The notes under the pieces: model-generated
The model's input: the letters and a program-made list of their open reading frames with translations, nothing else
What the model was told of the DNA's origin: nothing
Database searches by the model: none
Shown: positions 2,365-37,500 of the stretch, one piece after another
Layout: every line of letters starts with the position of its first letter
How positions within the stretch are numbered: the first letter of the stretch is position 1
Made by a program: the position numbers and the translations under genes
Assembly: GCA_963695345.1 (NCBI GenBank)
Contig: OY968769.1
Span: forward strand, 2,208,001-2,272,000
Direction of reading: 5' to 3'
Origin: an uncultured Methanomassiliicoccales archaeon
GTDB lineage: Archaea; Thermoplasmatota; Thermoplasmata; Methanomassiliicoccales; UBA472
DNA: 64,000 nucleotides

Positions 2365-2670
2365 CCGTTCATCGTGAACGGCCAGCACCCATCGAACTTG
2401 TACTCGCCCTGCTTCCGTGTAGCACCATTTTTCCCGCAGGGCCGTTCTCTCCATCCAGTATCGAGACAAATTGTACCTTGATGCGTCTTTGGCTGTCGAA
2501 GCGTTACTGTGTTCGTAAACATGATATGAGTTCATTCTAACGAGCGGAACCTATCACCGGTGAACGCTTCTTGCATCCGTTACGTTTTCATCAGGAAAGT
2601 GCCTTTCATCCCATCTCAACTTCTGAACGAATCGTTATTCTGATGAGCCCGACCGAGCTTGGGGGCTGTG

Positions 2671-2800
2671 CATAGTATAAGAATTTGGTGATTTCATTTG
2701 TTAAACTAATATCAAAAAAGTTCATATTTTAGAAGGCCAAATGTCATTCAGTTCTTAATATGATGACATATTTCAATATAATTTTGTTTATATCTTATCG
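2671..2800 (+). promoter_or_regulatory. AT-rich promoter/operator block, copy 1 (homologous to 22900-23024 on -)
   Basis: Shares TATAAGAA, CATT(T/C)GTTAAACTAATAT, TTCATATT, TATGATGA and an identical 20-mer ATATAATTTTGTTTATATCT (contains TATA-like TTTATA) with copy 2. Confidence 0.7.
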
Positions 2801-2832
2801 TTTTCTATCTTAAATCATGGGCGGGCAAGCGA

Positions 2833-3060
2833 AAGAGCTCTCGTTGAGGGTTAGTCCGTTCATTCCGTCGGATGGAATTCCGTCGGATCAGTTGCGATCG
2901 ACATCGACTGGATCCATTTTCGATCCAGGATGTTCAGGCTGTATTTCCCAGGGCGATTTCTTTCGATCGCCTGTAAACACGAGGAAGAACAGCTGACGAT
3001 CATCCAATCGTCAGGATGTGCCTCGATCAGTCTGCTGTAGTGAAACGTAACGAAGGAGCT
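2833..3060 (+). ncRNA. Candidate structured cis-regulatory 5' leader RNA, copy 1
   Basis: Hand alignment with reverse complement of 22635-22865 shows 6-7 conserved stems with compensatory/G-U changes, ending at SD AAGGAG. Confidence 0.65.
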
Positions 3061-3067
3061 GATAAAC

Positions 3068-3283
3068 ATGAGAATGGTATCATCAGGGAAGGACAAGAGC
3101 AGGATGGGCGTTGCGACGGCCTTAATAGTCGCGAAGGAACCCACAGCGACGGTCGATCAGTCCGTTTTGTGTCAAGGGGCGAACAAAACCAGGGACCGGG
3201 CATGGACGATCGGCGATCAGGCGATGAAAAAGAACTGTTACGAGAACGTCTCAAGCCAAAGCGGGGGCTGTTCCATATGGTAA
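3068..3283 (+). CDS. Conserved leader/upstream small protein, copy 1 (71 aa)
   Basis: SD AAGGAG; MRM..KDK..GV..TA..A.EP.A..S..ANKTR.R.WTI shared with 22355-22627; stop overlaps downstream ATG at 3277. Confidence 0.65.
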   Translation: MRMVSSGKDKSRMGVATALIVAKEPTATVDQSVLCQGANKTRDRAWTIGDQAMKKNCYENVSSQSGGCSIW

Positions 3284-4684
3284 GGATCAGGTTCAACGGC
3301 AGGTCCCTCACGCTGCTGTCGATGATGATCGTGGGGGCGATGATCGGAACATCCCTCCTGGGTGCCGCGTCGGTTCAGGGTGCCACCGCCCCGGTCGTGC
3401 CCCTCGGGGACGGGACGTCGGTTTCAGTGTCCTACACCATTTACAAAGATGGCAGCGGATACACCTGCGCGAAGAACGCGATAACCGCCGCAATCGATTT
3501 CCGGGACACCAACTCCCGAACGGTGATTCAGAAGGCGATCGACAAGCTGTCGGGCGGCTATGTCTACATCAAGGCAGGAACGTATGACATTTCCAAGACC
3601 ATCTACACGAACAAAGTGTCGATCGTCGGCGACGGGAACGGGACCATACTCAAGATCGGCACCACCGTTCACAGCGCAGGCCTGCTGGTGACGAACGGCT
3701 ACTACAAGCTCGATGGCACCTACATGTCCAGCCGTCCGACCGGCATCACCATCAGCAACCTCCAGGTCGACGGCAACCGGGCCGTCAGGACCAGCGGGAC
3801 GATGGAAGGCATCGGCATGATAAACACCCTGAACAGCAAGATCTTCAGGGTCTACGTGCACGACGTGATCGCTGGGACAGGGCATCTACATGTCCAACTC
3901 GCAGTACTGCAGCATTAAGAACAGCCAGGTCTACAACATCGGGGATACGACATACGCGCACTACGGATCGGGAATCGCGTTCGGCGAGGCTTCATCTTCG
4001 AAGATAGCATCGGCGTACATCACCATCGACAAGGTGCGGATCACGAAAGTGTCGATGTCCTGCATCGACCTGGAGCCGGCCAACCACGTGACCATAACCA
4101 ACTGCGTTTTCCGTGAGGCCTCGACCTGGAACGGGCACGCCACCCCGGTGATAACGGAATATGTGATATCCGGATGGGGGGCAAATGATTACATCACGGC
4201 CACCGGCAACAATATGTACGGTGCATTCGGGGAGTTCATCGTCCTGACGCCGAGCAACCATTGTGTGATCAGCAACAACGTCATCACCTATACCGCCGGG
4301 AAAACGGCCGCCATATACTCCACCGGGTCGTACGACAATGTGATCAAAGGGAACAAGATCACGACCATCCAGAAGGACGCGATCGTGGGAGTGAACTGCC
4401 GGTCGTTCTTGGTGGAAGGCAACACGATCGACGAGGCGGCCACGGGTCAGAACGCCTACGGGATCCGGTTCTTCGAATCCGGCGGCACATCGTCCGACAA
4501 CCAGATCAAGAGCAACACGGTCATCGGTTTCAAGTACGCCATCACGGCCAACTACGGTAGCGACTACTCGACGATCACGTACAACACCGTCAAGTCAAGC
4601 TATGTCGGCCTGATGCTGACCGGAACGCACAATGTCAAGATCGGCAACGTGCTGAACGGAGCGCTGGAACGGATATCCGCGTAA
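3277..4684 (+). CDS. Secreted right-handed parallel beta-helix (pectate lyase-like/NosD-like) protein; frameshift near 3880
   Basis: Signal peptide (LTLLSMMIVGAMIGTSLLGAASVQGA); IQKAID..GGYVYIKAGTY Pectate_lyase_3-like start; repeated N.I.GN.I beta-helix rungs; ORFs 3016-3918 and 3890-4684 join. Confidence 0.8.
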
Positions 4685-4932
4685 GCTGAGTGGAGAGCAT
4701 TCGGAGAAAAAACGCCAACAACGACCGGTCCTGCGGTTCGCGGGCCCGGTCTTACTTTTTCGACCTGGATCATCGACCAGACCATGTTCTCACGGAATTG
4801 GGAACATTGGAGCGCCTTTCATTCATTGTTTTCGCACTTTCATGGGGCGCGATGGCTATCCTACCGTGTCGTTCGTCAGGAAACAGCATGGGTCGGGAGA
4901 TTTACTTAGCCTTTTGACCGGCCGTTGACCCA

Positions 4933-21022: not shown

Positions 21023-22355
21023 TTACGCGTGCGGTGCCGCGTGGACCTCCGTGCTAAGGGCTCCTATTCCGACCGCGTTGACCGCGGCGATCTTGAAGTA
21101 ATAGGTTACCCCGTTAGTCAGATAGGTGTTCGTGTACGACGTGCCAGGACCGATCGTCGCGACCAGGGTTTCCGTTCCGGAAGACCAGCCGCGGTAGATC
21201 TTATAGGCGGTGATCGCCGATCCGCCGGTGGACGGTGCGGTCCAGGTCAGCTTGACCGCTGTGTTGGAACCGGTCGCGGTTATCGATGTTACCTTGCCCG
21301 GGACACCTGACGTTGGTGTCGGTGTCGGTGTCGGTGTCGGGGTTGAGGTGGTCGGTATTGAAGAGCTGCCGCAGTTGAGGACCGTTCCCGTCTTCTGGAT
21401 CATGCTCAGCCCTTCATAGTTGCCGACTCCCTTGCAGTTTATGCAGGAGACGCCCGGTACCTGGAATCCCTGGAACCGGAAGCCGTAGCCGTAGTAGGTG
21501 GGGCACTTGGGGCGCTGTCCGTTGTAGTTGGCAACGCAATCGATCAGCTTGATGTTCTTCGGGGACGAACCGTACTCGACGTGGAACCCGGAACACCAGT
21601 TGTAGTTCGCTGAGCATCTGGTCAGGATGATGTTCTCCACACGGGTGCACTCGACCAGGTCATATCCAACAATCCAGGCATTGACCCAGCCGATGTTGTC
21701 GCCGCCGTTGTGGCTGGCATCGCAGTCGGTAAAGGCAACGTTCCTGATCAGGCTCTTACCGGAATAACTATTGTCATCGCCGAACAGCAGGAATCCATAG
21801 GTCTGGGAGTATGTGACGGTGCAGCGGGTGAATTTCACACCATCGATCATGCCGTTTGCGCCAACGTACAACCAGAACCCGGCGTTCATGTCTCCCGTCA
21901 AGGTCGTGGCGTGAACATCGGTGAAGACCCAGTTCCCGCAGGTCCCTCCAGCCTTATATCCGTATATCTGGAGGTGTCCCGTGAACTTGAACGATTGCAT
22001 CGTAACGTACGAGACTCCCTTGATGTAGAAGTTGTGAGACGAGGTCGATTTGAAAACGGTCGAATCACCATCGCCTTTCAATGTCGTTCCTGTGCCGAAG
22101 TATACGTGGGCCGTGATCATGTAAGTTCCGGCTGGAACGTATGTCACCTTATTGATATTCGACAACGCCCAGTTCAAGGCGGCGGTGAACGATGCCGCGC
22201 TGTATACTGTTCTTCCTGATGAGTCAACGACCACGTTGGATGAGACCTTGTAGTCATATGCTCCGGCGGCGCTGACATCGCTGGCCATCGATGGGAAAAG
22301 CGGATACCGTCAGTCCCATGACGACCAACACGAGGAGGCAATTCCTGAGCTTCAT
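21023..22355 (-). CDS. Secreted beta-helix protein with Pro/Thr linker and C-terminal fibronectin type III domain; frameshift in signal-peptide region (~22295)
   Basis: ATG at 22355 gives MKLRNCLLVLVVMGL, matching paralog MKLRTCLLMFIVIGL at 34573; FN3 motif LTWTAP..GGSAITAYKIYRG..YYFKIAAVNAVG. Confidence 0.8.
21314..21340 (+). repeat. (GGTGTC)x4 tandem repeat encoding a TPTPTPTP linker on the - strand
   Basis: ggtgtc ggtgtc ggtgtc ggtgtc seen directly. Confidence 0.85.
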
Positions 22356-22627
22356 TACGCTACCCCGTGGTCATTGCCCGTGCATTTCTCATTCCGAGGA
22401 CCAGCGTACTTATCCGCCATGGTACCATTCTGCCGATCGTCGATGCGGCTGGCCTGGCGGCTGCTAGTGCCCGATATGGTCCAAGAATACCTGATTCTTG
22501 TTTTATTCGCCATACAGTTCATCCCTGACAAGGCAAACGCCGCTCCGGGTTCCGTTGCGGCGAAGATGGCCGTCCTGGAGACGCCCTTCCCTCGCTTGTC
22601 TGTCTTCGATGGTAGTCCCATTCTCAT
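22355..22627 (-). CDS. Conserved leader/upstream small protein, copy 2 (90 aa)
   Basis: SD AAGGGAG; MRMGLPSKTDKRGKGVSRTAIFAATEPGAA..S..ANKTRIRYSWTI; TAATG overlap with downstream gene. Confidence 0.65.
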   Translation of the reverse strand: MRMGLPSKTDKRGKGVSRTAIFAATEPGAAFALSGMNCMANKTRIRYSWTISGTSSRQASRIDDRQNGTMADKYAGPRNEKCTGNDHGVA

Positions 22628-22634
22628 GTTTTTC

Positions 22635-22865
22635 AAGCTCCCTTTCGTTACGTTGCACTCAGATAGACTGAGAAGAGACAGTTTAACCAGACGACACGAT
22701 GGTCGCCGAGGGTCTGCCTCATATGCCGGCGATTGGAAGAATCGCTGTAAGGCGTACAGCCTGAACATCAGGAATCGAAAATGAATTCCACGATGTCGAT
22801 TGCAACTGAACCCGACGGAGTATCACCGACGGCAGAGTGAACAAAACCCCCGACGAGGGTTCTTC
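22635..22865 (-). ncRNA. Candidate structured cis-regulatory 5' leader RNA, copy 2
   Basis: Homologous to 2833-3060 with covarying stems. Confidence 0.65.
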
Positions 22866-22899
22866 CATTTGTTCTCTCATAATTAGGCAATTGTTTAAT

Positions 22900-23024
22900 G
22901 AGATATAAACAAAATTATATCTAAATCATTCATCATAATAAATAACATCATAATATTTGCACCAGTAATATGAAATATATCCATATTAGTTTAACGAATG
23001 GATTCGTTACCTTCTTATAACATG
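22900..23024 (-). promoter_or_regulatory. AT-rich promoter/operator block, copy 2
   Basis: Reverse complement carries the same motifs as 2671-2800, including ATATAATTTTGTTTATATCT. Confidence 0.7.
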
Positions 23025-23537
23025 ACCGGTTGCCGCGACCTCGGCATCGCGAGCGTTTCCCTCTTTTTGTTACGTCGAAAACGACGAAATGGCAGTCCGA
23101 TTGAGGACGGTTTATGTACGAACTTCCACATCGGAGCGCCTGAGTCCACATACCAAGTTTCTGTAATGATCCGTGGGTCGCACTGCCGCGGATATCTTGG
23201 AATCATGGGATCTGCCCGGCGCCGAGACTTCAGTTCTACGCCCTTTGAGCGGATGATCCGATAAGGCTTGATACTATTGTGTATAGTTCAAGCGATCCCA
23301 TTTTGACGCATCCAGATGAAAAACTATCGTCCTACCCCTGTTAACAATATGGCAGGCGATCGTGGACACCCGACCAAAATGAATGATCGTGAGCAATAAG
23401 GTACCTGGCCGTTCACCTATTTGCAATCCTTACGGGTATATACCGATATGATTCCTCTCGATTCCAGATGCCAAAAATCCACTCAATGACAAAGTTACAT
23501 CAATTAATTTATATCATCGTCATGAATAGAGAATGAC

Positions 23538-33911: not shown

Positions 33912-34572
33912 AACCTGGCCGAATAACAGACCTTATTGATTAAAAAGCTTTTTAAAAAACGCCATCTTCATTTTCAAGCGAGATATCATGCTCAAATAAA
34001 CATTCAAATTCGTTGTTGGCAGAAAGAAACCAAAACTAATTAACAATTGATAATATTTATGGTCCAAACAAAAGAGAAGGTGAAAAACTATCAGTGAATG
34101 ACCGCAGATAGGTCCGGATCACGCCAACCAGACATTCCTTTCCTAATGATCTTGGAGGTCATCGTTTAGACATCAGAATTTAGGTCCCTCCCTTCTCAGG
34201 GCTTGAACCATCCGGCGACCATCTATTCCCACTCAATTGCATCCACGATTCACCGTTCGGTTCTGCCTAACGAATAGGGCGTGAGACCTACCCGGGAAAC
34301 GGTGTCCAGCCGATTCTGGACGGTATCAATTCTGATAGCCGGGACTAAACGTTTGACTACAATAGAGGGGTTGTCTTCTTACCTGCGAACATGCAAGCCC
34401 CTGCCGTTAGGTATTAGAATGACGACCCTGACCTTAGTTAGTGATCCTTGGCCCGATCGCAGCGCCGACCGAAGCCAAGGAAACAGTATCCGTCACCATT
34501 TGGATATTGACACCTTGGTCACCTTTTCATCGATTTCATATTTCTTAGGATATAAGGAAAGGGGGCGCGGTC

Positions 34573-37500
34573 GTGAAGCTTAGAACCTGCCTTCTGATGT
34601 TCATCGTCATCGGATTGATGTTCCCCGGCATCACCGTCACGGCGGACGATGCCGTCGCCGCCGGGACCTATGATTATAAGGTCTCATCGAACGTCGTTCT
34701 TGATTCAGGAGGAAGCGCCGTCTATACTGCTGCCTCCTTCACCGCCGCTTTGAACTGGGCGTTGACCCATGTGAACACCAGGACCTACGTTCCGGCCGGG
34801 ACGTACACGCTCACGGCCCACGTCTACTTCGGTACGGGAACCACCCTTTTCGGCGATGGGGATTCGACCGTCTTCACCGCGACCGCCTCCCGCTTCTTCT
34901 ATATCAAAGGGGTCTCTGACGTCACCTTATCATCCTTCAAGTTCACCGGCCACCTGCAGGTGTACGGGTATAAGGCCGGGGGCACCTGCGGGGACTGGAC
35001 CTTCACCGACGTTCACGCCACACAATTGACCGGGGACATGGAATCGGGTTTCTGGATGTACGTCGGGACGAATGGCATAATCGACGGCATCACCTTCACA
35101 CGTTGCTCCGTTACTTATTCCCAGACCTACGGATTCCTGCTGTTCGGCGATGACAATAGTTATTCGGGTAACAGCCTGATCAAGAACGTGGCCTTCACCG
35201 ATTGCGATGCCAGCCACAACGGCGGCGACAACATCGGCTGGATCAACGCCTGGATCACCGGATACGATCTGGTCGAGTGCACCACCGTGGAGAACATCGT
35301 ATTGACGAGATGCACGGCGACCTATAACTGGTGCTCCGGGTTCCACGTCGAGTACGGGGCGAAACCGAAGAACATCGTGCTGATCGATTGCGTCACCAGC
35401 TACAACGGGCAGAAGCCCAACTGCGAACAGTACTACGGCTACGGGTTCAAGTTCCAGAACTTCCAGGTACCGGGGGTCACTTGCACCAACCTTGTCGGAA
35501 CCGGCAATCACGAGGGGTTCACGCCGATCTCGATGACTGCGTCAAGCCTGAACATGAAGACCTGGGTCAACACCGTCAGCGGCAGGGCGTCGTCCGGATC
35601 ATGGTATCCGGCCGGAGCCCCGGGGCGAGCACGGACCTCATCTTCACGAAGCTGGGCTCGAACGCTAACTGCGTGATCGATACCTACTACAAGTCAGTGA
35701 AGCTCCTCTACTACTATGGCGGAACCATCACCTATGCCACACCGTCATCGGGCACGGTGTCATCGGCACCGACCAACCTGGCCTCGACTTTGACTGCGGG
35801 AAAGGTCGCCCTGACCTGGAGCGCACCGGCCAGCAACGGCGGGTCGGCGATAACCTCGTATAATATTTACCGGGGCACCTCCGCCGGAGGGGAATCGGCC
35901 ACGGCGATAGGCACCAGCACCTCCCTGGCATACACCGACTCGAACGTCGTTGCAGGAACGACCTACTACTACGTGGTAAAGGCGGTCAACTCCGTCGGTA
36001 CCTCGGCCGCCAGTAACGAGGCGTCCCGCTCGGTCCCGGGAACGGTGCCGTCGGCACCGACCAACCTGGCCTCGACATTGTCCGCGGGTAAGGTCTCGTT
36101 GACATGGACCGCTCCGGCCTCGAGCGGCAGCAGTCCCGTGACCGGATATGTGATCTATCGCGGCACCAGTTCCGCCTTAACCGACCAGGTCTCGATCGGT
36201 TCGTCGATCACGACCAGCTATCTCGATACCGCGTCATTGATCGGTACCTACTATTACACCGTCAAGGCTGTAAGTTCGGTCGGTTCCTCGCCCGCCAGCG
36301 CATCGATCTCTATGACGGTTGAAGTACCAAGCACCGTCCCAGGGACGGTCAGCGGAGTTAACGCGGTCGGTTCCATCGGACAGGTTACGTTGAATTGGAT
36401 AGCACCATCCAACGGCGGGTCGGCAATAACAGGCTACAAGTTGTATCGGTCCACCGTTTCCGGTTCCGAAACACTGGTGGCAACTCTCGGAGCTGTCCAT
36501 ACCTATGCCGATACCGGTCTCATCAACGGCGGGACGTATTACTATAGAATATCGGCGGTCAACGCCATTGGGGAAGGTCCATTGAGCTCAGAGGTGACGG
36601 TTACCGTTTCCGCTCTGCCTTCATTCATCTCCGTGCCCGAGAATGAACTGACCGTGGGGTCCGTATACTCATACCAAGCTCTGGCGTCCGGTCAAGGAAT
36701 GACCTATTACCTTTCATCGAATGCCACGTTCCTGTCGATCGATTCCGGCTCGGGGACTATCTCCGGCACGGCGGACATGAGGCACGCTTCTTATTATGTT
36801 CATATCACAGCCACTGGTTCCAGCGGCGCGGCATGGCAGAACTATACCCTGTTCGTCAACGAGACGATGCCGCAGATCCTGACGACGGACATATCCTCAG
36901 GGAGTGATCGGAGAGGATTACTCTTACCTCATCGTAGCATCGGGAAGTAACCTTACCTTTTCCATGGATACTAATGCCACGTTCCTGACCATTGACCCGA
37001 TGACAGGCGAGATAACCGGGTCCCCGACGTCATCCGGTTCCTGGCCATTGAGCGTGACCGCTTCAAATTCAGCCGGAAACGATGTTCATACCTATTCGTT
37101 CAACGTGGTCGAAGGCTCACCCGCGTTCATTTCGGTTCCTGTACTTAACGCGACAAATGGAATATGTGTATTCATACGTCCCGGACACCTATTGGAAAGC
37201 GGCATCATACTCGATGACGACGAATGCCACGTTCTTGGTCATTGACAGCGTCCAAGGGATAGTATCGGGCATTCCGGACAGAGCTGGCGACTATGCTGTG
37301 AACATTACCGCGACGAATTCCTACGGGTCAGCTGTTCAATCCTATGTATTGCATGTGGAGGAGGCGATCCCGGTCGAACCGGTAACTCCCGATGAGGACG
37401 ATCCCGTCATCGTGTTCTCACCTCCCTCGTTCATCTCCGTCCCGTTAAGAGAGCTTGGCGCCGGAACTGACTACTCCTACCTTGCATTCGCCTACGGTCA

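What the first reader, a model, noticed from the sequence alone, without database searches (positions are those of the whole stretch)
2833..3060. Twice-present, covarying multi-stem leader RNA upstream of secreted beta-helix genes: candidate novel archaeal riboswitch/attenuator/antiterminator
Seen in sequence: 2833-3060 (+) aligns by hand with the reverse complement of 22635-22865, and pairing is kept while letters change (copy1 vs copy2). P1 AGCUCUC-guu-GAGGGUU vs AACCCUC-guc-GGGGGUU. P2 CCGUCGG-loop-CCGUCGG hairpin (central U-U) in both. P3 ACAUC/GAUGU with inner CUGGAUC/GAUCCAG vs GGAAUU/GAUUCC around an identical CAUUUUC loop. P4 long-range AGGCUG/CAGUCU identical. P5 GGCGAU/AUCGCC vs GCGAUU/AAUCGC. 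P6 GAGG/CCUC vs GAGGCAG/CUGUCUC. P7 CUGACGAU/AUCGUCAG vs GGCGAC/GUCGUC (U-A to C-G swap). A conserved CAGUUGC could pair with the conserved AGUGxAACGUAACG lying directly 5' of the SD (AAGGAG/AAGGGAG). The two downstream genes are only distantly related, while the close paralog at 34573 lacks this element, so it is not just a passenger of gene duplication. Established: few riboswitch classes are known in archaea, and Bacillales eps operons use a structured RNA (EAR) for processive antitermination. Inference: a cis-acting RNA controlling surface-polysaccharide-associated genes. I do not recognise it as a known Rfam family but cannot search.
Basis: partly seen in the sequence, partly recalled or inferred. 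Interest (0 to 1): 0.9.

Follow-up and report, generated by a model that had tools for sequence, protein, structure and literature searches.

The report
New structured leader RNA in a methanogen
A roughly 250-base folded RNA sits in front of several surface-protein gene pairs in one genus of methane-producing archaea; it matches no catalogued RNA family, is clearly under selection, and probably controls how much of those proteins is made.

Summary
The two window copies (2817-3067 +, 22880-22628 -) belong to a family: 5 copies in this genome, 17 in 6 of 8 genomes of its genus (Methanomassiliicoccales), plus 2 on metagenome contigs. None was found in 143 other genomes of the order, and no Rfam 15 family matches. 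Nine helices are supported by covariation (93% of cells paired against 34-47% for slid controls; 24 pairs with compensatory changes against 6-11). A pseudoknot between the 5' strand and the P5 loop is likely. The leader is more conserved than four-fold sites of the downstream genes in 26 of 26 pairs.

That ORF is a truncated paralog of the archaellin N-terminus (hhalign 97.8%). Its end overlaps the start of a secreted beta-helix gene.

I found no terminator, no co-evolving SD-sequestering helix and no support for the proposed CAGUUGC/GCAAC pairing. "Riboswitch/attenuator" is therefore only partly supported. Best reading: a lineage-specific cis-regulatory leader that binds an unknown factor. 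The mechanism is inferred, not shown.

The parts
2671..2793 (+). Copy 1: conserved upstream control region ending in the BRE/TATA-like block ATATAATTTTGTTTATAT (2776-2793)
   Evidence: Conserved blocks across 17 copies. The 18-mer occurs exactly 5 times in the own genome, once per cassette. Similarity fades to about 40% further upstream. Promoter function and the TSS near 2817 are inferred from spacing, not measured.
2817..3067 (+). Copy 1 leader RNA, from the predicted +1 to the base before the small-ORF ATG
   Evidence: CM R1 hit of 223.4 bits; structure; coordinates mapped.
2820..2861 (+). Copy 1 helix P0 (2820-2825 with 2856-2861) enclosing hairpin P1 (2837-2842 with 2846-2851)
   Evidence: 4 of 6 P0 pairs and 5 of 6 P1 pairs show changes on both sides.
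2831..2836 (+). Copy 1 pseudoknot 5' strand GAAAGA, pairing with the P5 loop TCTTTC at 2959-2964
   Evidence: 93.9% paired in 17-18 copies. Copy 1 carries the only double change (G>A with C>U). RNAalifold on the 5' 171 columns chose this helix by itself.
2865..2886 (+). Copy 1 hairpin P2 (CCGTCGGA ... TCCGTCGG)
   Evidence: 94.9-97.6% paired; 2 pairs with changes on both sides.
2902..2932 (+). Copy 1 P3 (outer 2902-2905 with 2929-2932; inner 2910-2914 with 2922-2926; U-rich loop)
   Evidence: Inner helix has 3 of 5 pairs with changes on both sides; the outer helix hardly varies.
2936..3033 (+). Copy 1 3' domain. It is closed by long-range P4 (2936-2941 with 3028-3033) and holds P5 (2953-2958 with 2965-2970), P6 (2981-2984 with 3021-3024) and P7 (2993-3000 with 3007-3014).
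   Evidence: P4 covaries between the main type (AGGCUG/CAGUCU) and the divergent type (CAGGCAU/AUGCCUG). A G-U pair in P4 is kept in 16 of 18 copies and fixes the strand. P6 and P7 hold 2 and 4 pairs with changes on both sides.
3039..3058 (+). Copy 1 conserved single-stranded tail AGTGAAACGTAACG followed by the SD GGAG (3055-3058)
   Evidence: From about GTAAC onward the sequence resembles the translation-initiation region of the genome's archaellin genes.
3068..3283 (+). Copy 1 small ORF (71 aa), an archaellin N-terminus-like mini-protein
   Evidence: The ORF is open in 13 of 13 copies examined. hhalign against the own archaellin gives 97.8%, E 8.5e-13. No Pfam or NCBIfam family matches.
3277..4684 (+). 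Copy 1 secreted beta-helix gene, read in two overlapping frames (3277-3918 and 3890-4684)
   Evidence: Pfam Pect-lyase_RHGA_epim on the first piece; Beta_helix and NosD on the second. The copy-5 homolog has both parts in one frame.
22903..23025 (-). Copy 2: conserved upstream control region and BRE/TATA-like block (22920-22903)
22628..22880 (-). Copy 2 leader RNA. Helices: P0 22877-22872/22841-22836, P1 22860-22855/22851-22846, P2 22832-22826/22819-22812, P3 22795-22792/22769-22766 and 22788-22784/22776-22772, P4 22762-22757/22670-22665, P5 22744-22741/22734-22729, P7 22709-22702/22695-22688. Pseudoknot 22866-22861/22740-22735; SD 22641-22638.
   Evidence: CM R1 hit of 233.3 bits; coordinates.
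22355..22627 (-). Copy 2 small ORF (90 aa), the long-tailed subtype of the archaellin-like mini-protein
21023..22355 (-). Copy 2 beta-helix + fn3 gene. The signal-peptide frame starts at 22355 and stops after 33 codons; the 421-aa frame starts at 22288.
   Evidence: Pfam fn3, Beta_helix and Pect-lyase. The frame break is seen by comparison with the G005 homolog.

Best explanation
The finding is one member of a genus-specific family of about 250-nt, pseudoknotted 5'-leader RNAs. Each copy is the middle piece of a duplicated expression cassette. The cassette holds a shared promoter with about 120 nt of conserved upstream sequence, the leader, an archaellin-type translation-initiation region with a strong SD, a 64-90 aa archaellin-N-terminus-like ORF, and a secreted beta-helix protein gene whose start overlaps that ORF's stop. 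Shown here: the fold, its selection, its copy number, its linkage and its absence from Rfam. Inferred: the RNA starts about 3 nt before helix P0 and folds into a 5' domain (P0/P1, P2), a central hairpin P3 and a 3' domain (P4 closing P5-P7), tied together by pairing of the 5' strand CGGAAGA with the P5 loop. I take it to act in cis as a platform that binds a trans factor, either a protein (possibly the cassette's own mini-protein) or a small ligand. That binding would set translation initiation at the SD lying about 20 nt behind the last helix, and/or mRNA life-time. Through the overlapping reading frames it would also set output of the beta-helix protein. All cassettes would then respond together as one regulon.
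For: Family and linkage: there are 5 copies in the own genome and 17 in 6 of 8 genomes of the genus, plus 2 metagenome copies. The 14 strongest small-ORF matches (64.7-123.9 bits) all lie directly behind a leader hit, while weaker matches (55.5 bits or less) have archaellin-length open frames. Structure: 51 nested pairs in 9 helices, 22-24 of them with compensatory changes, 93% paired against 31-47% in slid controls. A conserved G-U in P4 (16 of 18 copies) fits only the sense strand. Pseudoknot: 93.9% paired with one double change. Selection: leader identity is 57-86% against 42-66% at four-fold sites of the downstream gene, higher in 26 of 26 pairs. Paired columns are 69-88% identical and unpaired columns 45-85%. 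Promoter, leader and small ORF stay 52-76% alike where the downstream genes are unalignable at 41-44%. Dispensability for the gene itself: a paralog 77% identical to the copy-2 protein has no leader, and G005 holds a decayed leader (32 bits) without promoter or small ORF in front of an intact beta-helix gene. Position: the fold ends 21 nt before a conserved SD that resembles an extended anti-16S match (read; the 16S 3' end is recalled, not checked).
Against: No regulatory event is shown. No RNA-seq run was listed, so even the TSS is inferred. No leader segment co-evolves with the SD/start region: across 23 sliding windows the lowest permutation p is 0.098, and the P4-3'/SD candidate has a cognate mean of -7.65 against a non-cognate mean of -7.83 kcal/mol, p about 0.70. 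Predicted SD accessibility varies widely between copies (0.17-0.97). There is no terminator-like T-run after the fold. Restriction to one genus and to one gene type is unlike most riboswitches. No partner RNA with complementarity to the conserved single strands was found in the genome beyond 3-mismatch chance hits. The copies are related paralogs and orthologs, so the counts are not independent events. Alignments A4 and A7 were fitted to the model.
Confidence: 0.45

Rival explanations
1. Constitutive stabiliser or translation enhancer. The leader is a structured 5' UTR that protects the mRNA from 5'-end-dependent decay (stem P0 close to the 5' end) and presents the SD unpaired. This would give high, unregulated expression of abundant surface proteins, as described for ompA and S-layer gene leaders (recalled, not checked here).
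For: P0 begins about 4 nt after the predicted +1. The SD and start lie outside every conserved helix. No alternative, co-evolving SD-occluding helix was found. The downstream genes encode secreted proteins.
Against: Nine helices, a pseudoknot and long, highly conserved single-stranded junctions are far more than a 5' stabiliser needs. Junction sequence conservation suggests specific recognition. The TSS is only inferred.
Confidence: 0.25
2. Transcription attenuator or processive antiterminator. The fold decides whether RNA polymerase reads on into the genes.
For: The P3 loop is U-rich, with runs of 4-7 U in most copies, and archaeal polymerases terminate at oligo-T (established knowledge, recalled). 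Folded leaders are used this way in Bacillales eps operons (EAR; recalled).
Against: The U-run sits inside a covarying hairpin loop in the middle of the fold, is not always 5 or more U, and is absent in the divergent copy L029. There is no T-run between the last helix and the SD. The units behind the leader are short gene pairs, not long operons with internal terminators. No Rfam match to EAR or any other family.
Confidence: 0.08
3. Independent or dual-function small RNA. The leader is released (processed or terminated) and acts in trans, and the downstream ORFs merely share its promoter.
For: It has a compact, strongly conserved fold with its own promoter. Multi-copy sRNA families exist in prokaryotes (recalled).
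Against: 16 of 17 genus copies are followed at a fixed distance by the same SD and small ORF. The one copy that lost the promoter and ORF is decayed. No complementary targets were found for the conserved single strands. There is no terminator behind the fold.
Confidence: 0.07
4. Neutral passenger. The similarity is only the residue of recent duplication or gene conversion of the cassette, and the apparent covariation comes from relatedness.
For: All copies descend from one ancestor within one genus. Shuffle controls ignore relatedness (tool note). The cassette does duplicate, with tandem copies in G003 and G005.
Against: The leader is more conserved than four-fold sites in 26 of 26 pairs, and paired columns are more conserved than unpaired ones. 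Slid-partner controls, which keep relatedness, give 6-11 compensatory pairs against 24. The divergent subtype keeps the helices with different letters.
Confidence: 0.04

Closest known systems
Orphan riboswitch candidates and structured cis-regulatory leader motifs found by comparative genomics (recalled as a category; no specific family matched)
   Same: It lies in a 5' UTR on the sense strand and has a multi-helix junction, a pseudoknot, conserved junction nucleotides, covariation support and constant linkage to one gene type.
   Different: No ligand is known and no recognisable expression platform was found. It was found in only one archaeal genus among 151 genomes of the order. The regulated genes encode a surface protein and an archaellin-like mini-protein, not enzymes or transporters.
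EAR, the eps-associated RNA of Bacillales
   Same: A folded leader in front of genes for cell-surface-related functions.
   Different: No sequence or structure match to any Rfam family. The host is archaeal. The units behind it are short two-gene units. There is no evidence for terminators to be overridden.
Long conserved 5' UTRs shared by paralogous genes in methanogens, such as the methanol methyltransferase mtaCB paralogs of Methanosarcina
   Same: A long (over 200 nt) leader kept among paralogs in a methanogen and thought to act after transcription.
   Different: Unrelated sequence and genes. Here a defined covarying fold with a pseudoknot is shown. No expression data exist for this one.
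Stabilising 5' leaders of ompA and of S-layer protein genes (recalled)
   Same: A stem close to the 5' end, an unpaired SD, and genes for exported surface proteins.
   Different: The architecture and conserved junctions are much more elaborate. The stabilising effect is untested.
Bacterial c-di-GMP riboswitches in front of flagellar, pilus and adhesin genes (recalled; functional analogy only)
   Same: A leader RNA tied to genes for motility-related and surface proteins.
   Different: No Rfam hit to those families and no evidence for any nucleotide ligand. The small ORF is only a degenerate archaellin fragment.

Membership tests
Any family of Rfam release 15 | Covariance-model score at or above the family's gathering threshold | tested here: not met
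   There were 0 matches at gathering thresholds in the whole 64-kb window. At E up to 10 on 2700-3350 the only match was a 17.6-bit Pospi_RY hit (E 2) on the opposite strand.
Riboswitch (general definition) | Conserved, covariation-supported aptamer-like fold in a 5' UTR | tested here: met
   Nine helices, 22-24 compensatory pairs, 93% paired against 31-47% in controls. The UTR position is inferred from the promoter and SD.
Riboswitch (general definition) | Direct, selective binding of a small molecule or ion | not testable with these tools
   Needs in-line probing, SHAPE or ITC.
Riboswitch (general definition) | Expression platform: a mutually exclusive helix that hides the SD or forms a terminator | tested here: inconclusive
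   Duplexes of -5 to -15 kcal/mol between the P4-3' region and the SD/start region are possible, but cognate pairs are no better than non-cognate ones (p about 0.70; lowest p 0.098 over 23 windows). Both sides are conserved, so covariation cannot decide. There is no T-run terminator after the fold.
Riboswitch (general definition) | Distribution across lineages, in front of genes that make, move or use one ligand | tested here: not met
   Hits fall in 1 of 34 genera and 6 of 151 genomes of the order, and in the same 6 with the broader 5'-half model R2 among 41 family genomes. The downstream genes are a mini-archaellin-like ORF and beta-helix proteins.
EAR / processive-antitermination leaders | Match to the family model, and location ahead of a long operon with internal terminators | tested here: not met
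   No Rfam match (that EAR is in Rfam is recalled). The units behind the leader are a small ORF plus one or two beta-helix genes.
5'-terminal stabiliser leaders (ompA type) | Stem-loop within a few nucleotides of the transcript's 5' end that prolongs half-life | tested here: inconclusive
   P0 starts about 4 nt after the +1 predicted from TATA spacing and a conserved pyrimidine-A. The TSS and half-life are not measurable here, and no RNA run was listed.
Autoregulatory protein-binding leaders (ribosomal-protein-leader type) | A protein encoded behind the leader binds it and represses its own translation | not testable with these tools
   The small ORF is always present behind the leader, but no RNA-binding domain was detected. 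Binding needs EMSA or toeprinting.
Archaellin (Pfam PF01917), tested for the small ORF only | Homology to the archaellin N-terminus (signal-peptide region and N-terminal helix) | tested here: met
   hhalign probability 97.8%, E 8.5e-13, over 59 columns against residues 1-61 of the genome's own archaellin. Nucleotide similarity runs from the SD onward.
Archaellin (Pfam PF01917), tested for the small ORF only | Full archaellin domain with an uninterrupted hydrophobic N-terminal helix | tested here: not met
   The small ORFs are 64-90 aa against 203 aa. They match 0 Pfam families even at E 10, while the archaellin scores 1.3e-25. In the aligned helix region they carry E, D, R and P where the archaellin is hydrophobic (read).

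The most novel reading that the evidence does not exclude
The leader is a new class of archaeal sensor RNA, either a true riboswitch for a small signal or an RNA-protein switch using its own archaellin-derived mini-protein. It would switch on a whole set of secreted beta-helix surface proteins together, linking surface remodelling or attachment to the state of the motility apparatus. This would be an archaeal counterpart of bacterial second-messenger riboswitches that control flagella and adhesins.
Probability: 0.15. Interest if true: 0.85.

Novelty: new member of a known kind. Interest (0 to 1): 0.65.

Why it matters
Very few structured cis-regulatory RNAs are known in archaea, and by recall almost none outside a handful of widespread riboswitch classes. 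This one has enough natural copies (19 found) to give a well-supported fold with a pseudoknot. It has a clear promoter, leader, SD and ORF layout, and a genus with cultured members by recall, so it is directly testable. The cassette also shows how a new regulatory unit can be assembled. The start of an archaellin gene was captured, truncated to a mini-ORF, joined to a new structured leader and promoter, and spread in front of different surface-protein genes. If the leader senses a signal, it would define a regulon for cell-surface proteins in methanogens found in gut and wetland habitats (habitat statement recalled).

Tried and rejected
**Known families.** Rfam was searched at gathering thresholds on the whole window and at E up to 10 on the locus. 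Nothing usable came back. There are no tRNA or tmRNA genes in the window.

**Leaderless ORF at the predicted 5' end.** An AUG is present there in only some copies; others have AAG, ACG, AGG or GUG. Frames differ through 1-2 nt indels. Rejected.

It is 87% paired with 3 double-change cells. The three copies with GAAAC (c1, c3, G3c) lack compensation, and alternative registers fit only the divergent copies (read). Left as unsupported.

**SD sequestration.**
- MFE folds of 18 copies often pair the SD, but with different partners.
- The cognate against non-cognate duplex test was negative for the P4-3' region and for 23 windows along the leader.

**Trans partner.** Reverse complements of five conserved segments were searched in the own genome at up to 3 mismatches. 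Only chance-level hits appeared.

**Mobile or viral origin.**
- No blastn match in 50,697 phage records or 72,556 plasmid records.
- A conserved 15-mer matched 108 stretches of viral contigs. Of these, 80 were listed as loci, and 0 of those 80 scored with the model. The other 28 were not examined.

**Expression.** No RNA holder was listed for window 2600-4700.

**Wider homologs.**
- Metagenome scan: 120 pattern matches, 2 confirmed loci.
- Genome-contig scan: 26 pattern matches, 1 locus. That locus scores the same as the G001 copy (236.8 bits) and I took it to be that copy.

**Literature.** Four searches returned 3, 0, 8 and 4 papers. I saw only listings and abstract starts. For PMC4153887 I read two passages, which say ncRNAs were predicted with Rfam; its supplementary table was not seen. 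None mentions this RNA. This is a narrow search, not proof that it is unpublished.

**Rows dropped.**
- The decayed G005 copy (L032, 32 bits) was left out of alignments A4 and A7.
- The 5'-truncated L037 was left out of A9 and of the duplex tests.
- The codon analysis used 11 of 13 small ORFs; the two long-tailed ones were left out.
- One search compared 26 pairs within four groups of alignable genes, not all pairs.

**Not done.** Structure prediction of the mini-protein, complex prediction, the protein atlas search and the protein representatives search.

Full report
**What is at the coordinates**

Window 2833-3060 (+) and the reverse complement of 22635-22865 are homologous, and the similarity is wider than reported. 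It starts about 140 nt upstream of a TATA-like block. It then runs through about 250 nt of non-coding sequence, an SD and an ATG, and about 200 nt into a small ORF. The window is G000:C1:2208001-2272000. The same module occurs five times in this 2.56-Mb genome, and the 18-mer ATATAATTTTGTTTATAT occurs exactly five times, once per module. The fifth copy starts about 310 nt beyond the window's end.

**Distribution**

- blastn found copies only in the same genus: 4 of 7 other genomes, and 0 of 33 genomes outside the genus.
- A covariance model built from 13 copies (R1) found 17 copies in 6 of 8 genomes of the genus. It found none in 39 genomes of seven other genera of the family. It found none in 143 non-genus genomes among the 151 genomes and 34 genera of the order that were searched. 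Infernal's stricter filters were in use there.
- A second, broader model of the 5' 171 columns that includes the divergent subtype (R2) gave the same six genomes among 41.
- The two genus genomes without a hit are 93% complete, in 140-190 contigs.
- Two more copies lie on metagenome contigs.
- One database record names the lineage as Methanomassiliicoccales.
- Rfam 15 has no match. There was no match in the phage or plasmid collections. None of the 80 viral-contig loci that share a 15-mer scored with the model.

**Structure**

RNAalifold on the MAFFT alignment of 13 copies predicts 51 pairs in nine helices. Of the 51 pairs, 22 show changes on both sides.

| Alignment | Cells paired | Paired in slid controls | Compensatory pairs | Same in slid controls | Shuffles reaching observed |
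|---|---|---|---|---|---|
| A2, 13 copies, not model-fitted | 92.9% | 30.8-42.9% | 22 | 5-8 | 0 of 500 |
| A7, 18 copies, model-fitted | 93.1% | 34.5-47.3% | 24 | 6-11 | 0 of 500 |

Two divergent copies (75-79 bits) keep the helices with different letters. For example, P4 changes from AGGCUG/CAGUCU to CAGGCAU/AUGCCUG. A G-U pair in P4 is kept in 16 of 18 copies and fits only the strand of the downstream genes.

The 5' strand CGGAAGA is complementary to the P5 loop UCUUCC(G). This pairing holds in 93.9% of cells. One copy (c1) carries a double change, G>A with C>U. RNAalifold chose this helix unprompted on the 5' sub-alignment. I regard the pseudoknot as likely but resting mostly on conservation.

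Single-sequence z-scores are modest, at -2.55 and -2.04.

**Selection**

Leader identity is 57-86%. It exceeds identity at four-fold degenerate sites of the downstream beta-helix gene (42-66%) in 26 of 26 comparable pairs. Paired columns are 69-88% identical and unpaired columns 45-85%. In the most diverged pairs the unpaired columns are near the four-fold level.

Three caveats apply: the pairs are not independent, the leader alignment is model-fitted, and four-fold sites may be partly saturated.

Promoter region, leader and small ORF stay 52-76% alike where the downstream genes are unalignable at the DNA level, at 41-44%. A paralog 77% identical to the copy-2 protein, at window 34573, has no leader. 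In G005 a decayed leader without promoter or small ORF precedes an intact gene. The leader is therefore constrained, but it is not needed for the protein as such. That is what one expects of a regulatory element.

**What lies behind it**

The ATG behind the SD opens a 64-90 aa ORF that is open in 13 of 13 copies examined. The 14 strongest matches of its profile in 47 family genomes all lie directly behind a leader hit. Weaker matches have archaellin-length open frames.

Codon-position differences are 1115, 1077 and 1395, which is only a weak coding signature. The ORF has no Pfam or NCBIfam family. It has 56 "hypothetical" cluster representatives among 5.8 billion proteins.

It is homologous to the first roughly 60 residues of the genome's own archaellins: hhalign 97.8%, E 8.5e-13. 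DNA similarity starts at the SD region. The hydrophobic helix, however, is interrupted by charged residues and the rest of the archaellin is missing. The archaellin genes themselves have different leaders of about 130 nt and no model hit.

The conserved "RGC" near the small ORF's end coincides with a GAGG SD-like motif 9-12 nt before the next ATG (read). The beta-helix gene's start overlaps the small ORF's stop. The beta-helix proteins carry signal peptides and Pect-lyase, Beta_helix or NosD domains, and fn3 in copy 2.

**Mechanism**

The fold ends 21 nt before the SD. The SD and start codon lie outside every conserved helix.

I tested for an expression platform and found none that co-evolves. 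The P4 3' strand region can pair with the SD/start region at -5 to -15 kcal/mol, comparable to P4 itself in most copies. Both sides are conserved, so this can be neither supported nor excluded. There is no oligo-T tract behind the fold. The only U-run is the P3 loop.

No trans RNA partner was found and no RNA-seq data were available.

I therefore commit, at 0.45, to a cis-acting regulatory platform. It would bind a protein or small ligand and set translation and/or stability of the small-ORF/beta-helix message. Rivals are:
- a constitutive stabiliser or enhancer (0.25);
- attenuation or antitermination (0.08);
- a released sRNA (0.07);
- a neutral passenger (0.04).

The fold, linkage and selection are shown. 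The TSS, the binding partner and the regulatory effect are inferred.

**Comparison and novelty**

This is not a member of any Rfam family. It resembles orphan riboswitch candidates in architecture. It fails the tests of wide distribution and a metabolic gene context, and the test for a visible expression platform was inconclusive.

It is best filed as a new family within the known kind "structured cis-regulatory 5' leader". It has one unusual feature: it is fused to an archaellin-derived mini-ORF and spread as a cassette.

The literature searches found no description of it.

Noticed in passing
window 3068-3283 (+) and 22627-22355 (-); L039 (G000:C1:686000-692000): The small ORF behind each leader is a truncated, degenerate paralog of the archaellin N-terminus (hhalign 97.8%). 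The genome also has four tandem full-length archaellin genes, each with its own promoter-like block and a leader of about 130 nt, plus a further archaellin-like match near 543 kb (tblastn).
   Followed up: yes
window 3277-3918 and 3890-4684 (+): The copy-1 beta-helix gene is split into two overlapping frames (213 aa Pect-lyase part and 264 aa Beta_helix part), whereas the copy-5 homolog has both in one frame. This is either a frameshifted pseudogene or an assembly indel.
   Followed up: partly
window 22355-22254 and 22288-21023 (-): In the copy-2 beta-helix gene the signal-peptide frame (MKLRNCLLVLVVMGLTVSAFPI...) runs into a stop after 33 codons, and the mature part (MASDVSAAGAYDYK...) is in another frame. 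The G005 homolog has them in one frame, so the difference looks like a one-base length change. The genome is one closed contig yet scores only 85% complete, so indel errors in the assembly are a possible cause for both breaks.
   Followed up: partly
window 2671-2793 (+) and 23025-22903 (-): About 120 nt upstream of the TATA-like block are conserved in blocks across 17 copies (TATAAGAA, GATTTCATTTGTTAAAYTAATATC, CATATTTT, TTATTATGATGA). This suggests binding sites for a shared transcription factor or a second promoter. The CATAT-type block recalls archaellum-regulator sites described in Methanococcus (recalled only).
   Followed up: partly
window 34100-34560 (+): The leader-less paralog at 34573 is preceded by an ORF-poor stretch of about 450 nt that is unrelated to the leader. 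It could be another long 5' UTR.
   Followed up: no
L032 (G005:C4:27969-28212) and L024 (G005:C4:30369-30624): Two cassettes lie in tandem in G005. One leader is decayed (32 bits), with no promoter block or small ORF, but its beta-helix gene is intact. In the other cassette the small ORF has an early stop after MRMGPS followed by a new ATG. G003 contig 48 also has two cassettes 2 kb apart.
   Followed up: partly
G000:C1:2276304-2277320, beyond the window's end: A second beta-helix gene, 69% identical to the copy-4 protein, lies about 600 nt behind the 982-aa gene of copy 5. At least one cassette may therefore drive two beta-helix genes.
   Followed up: no
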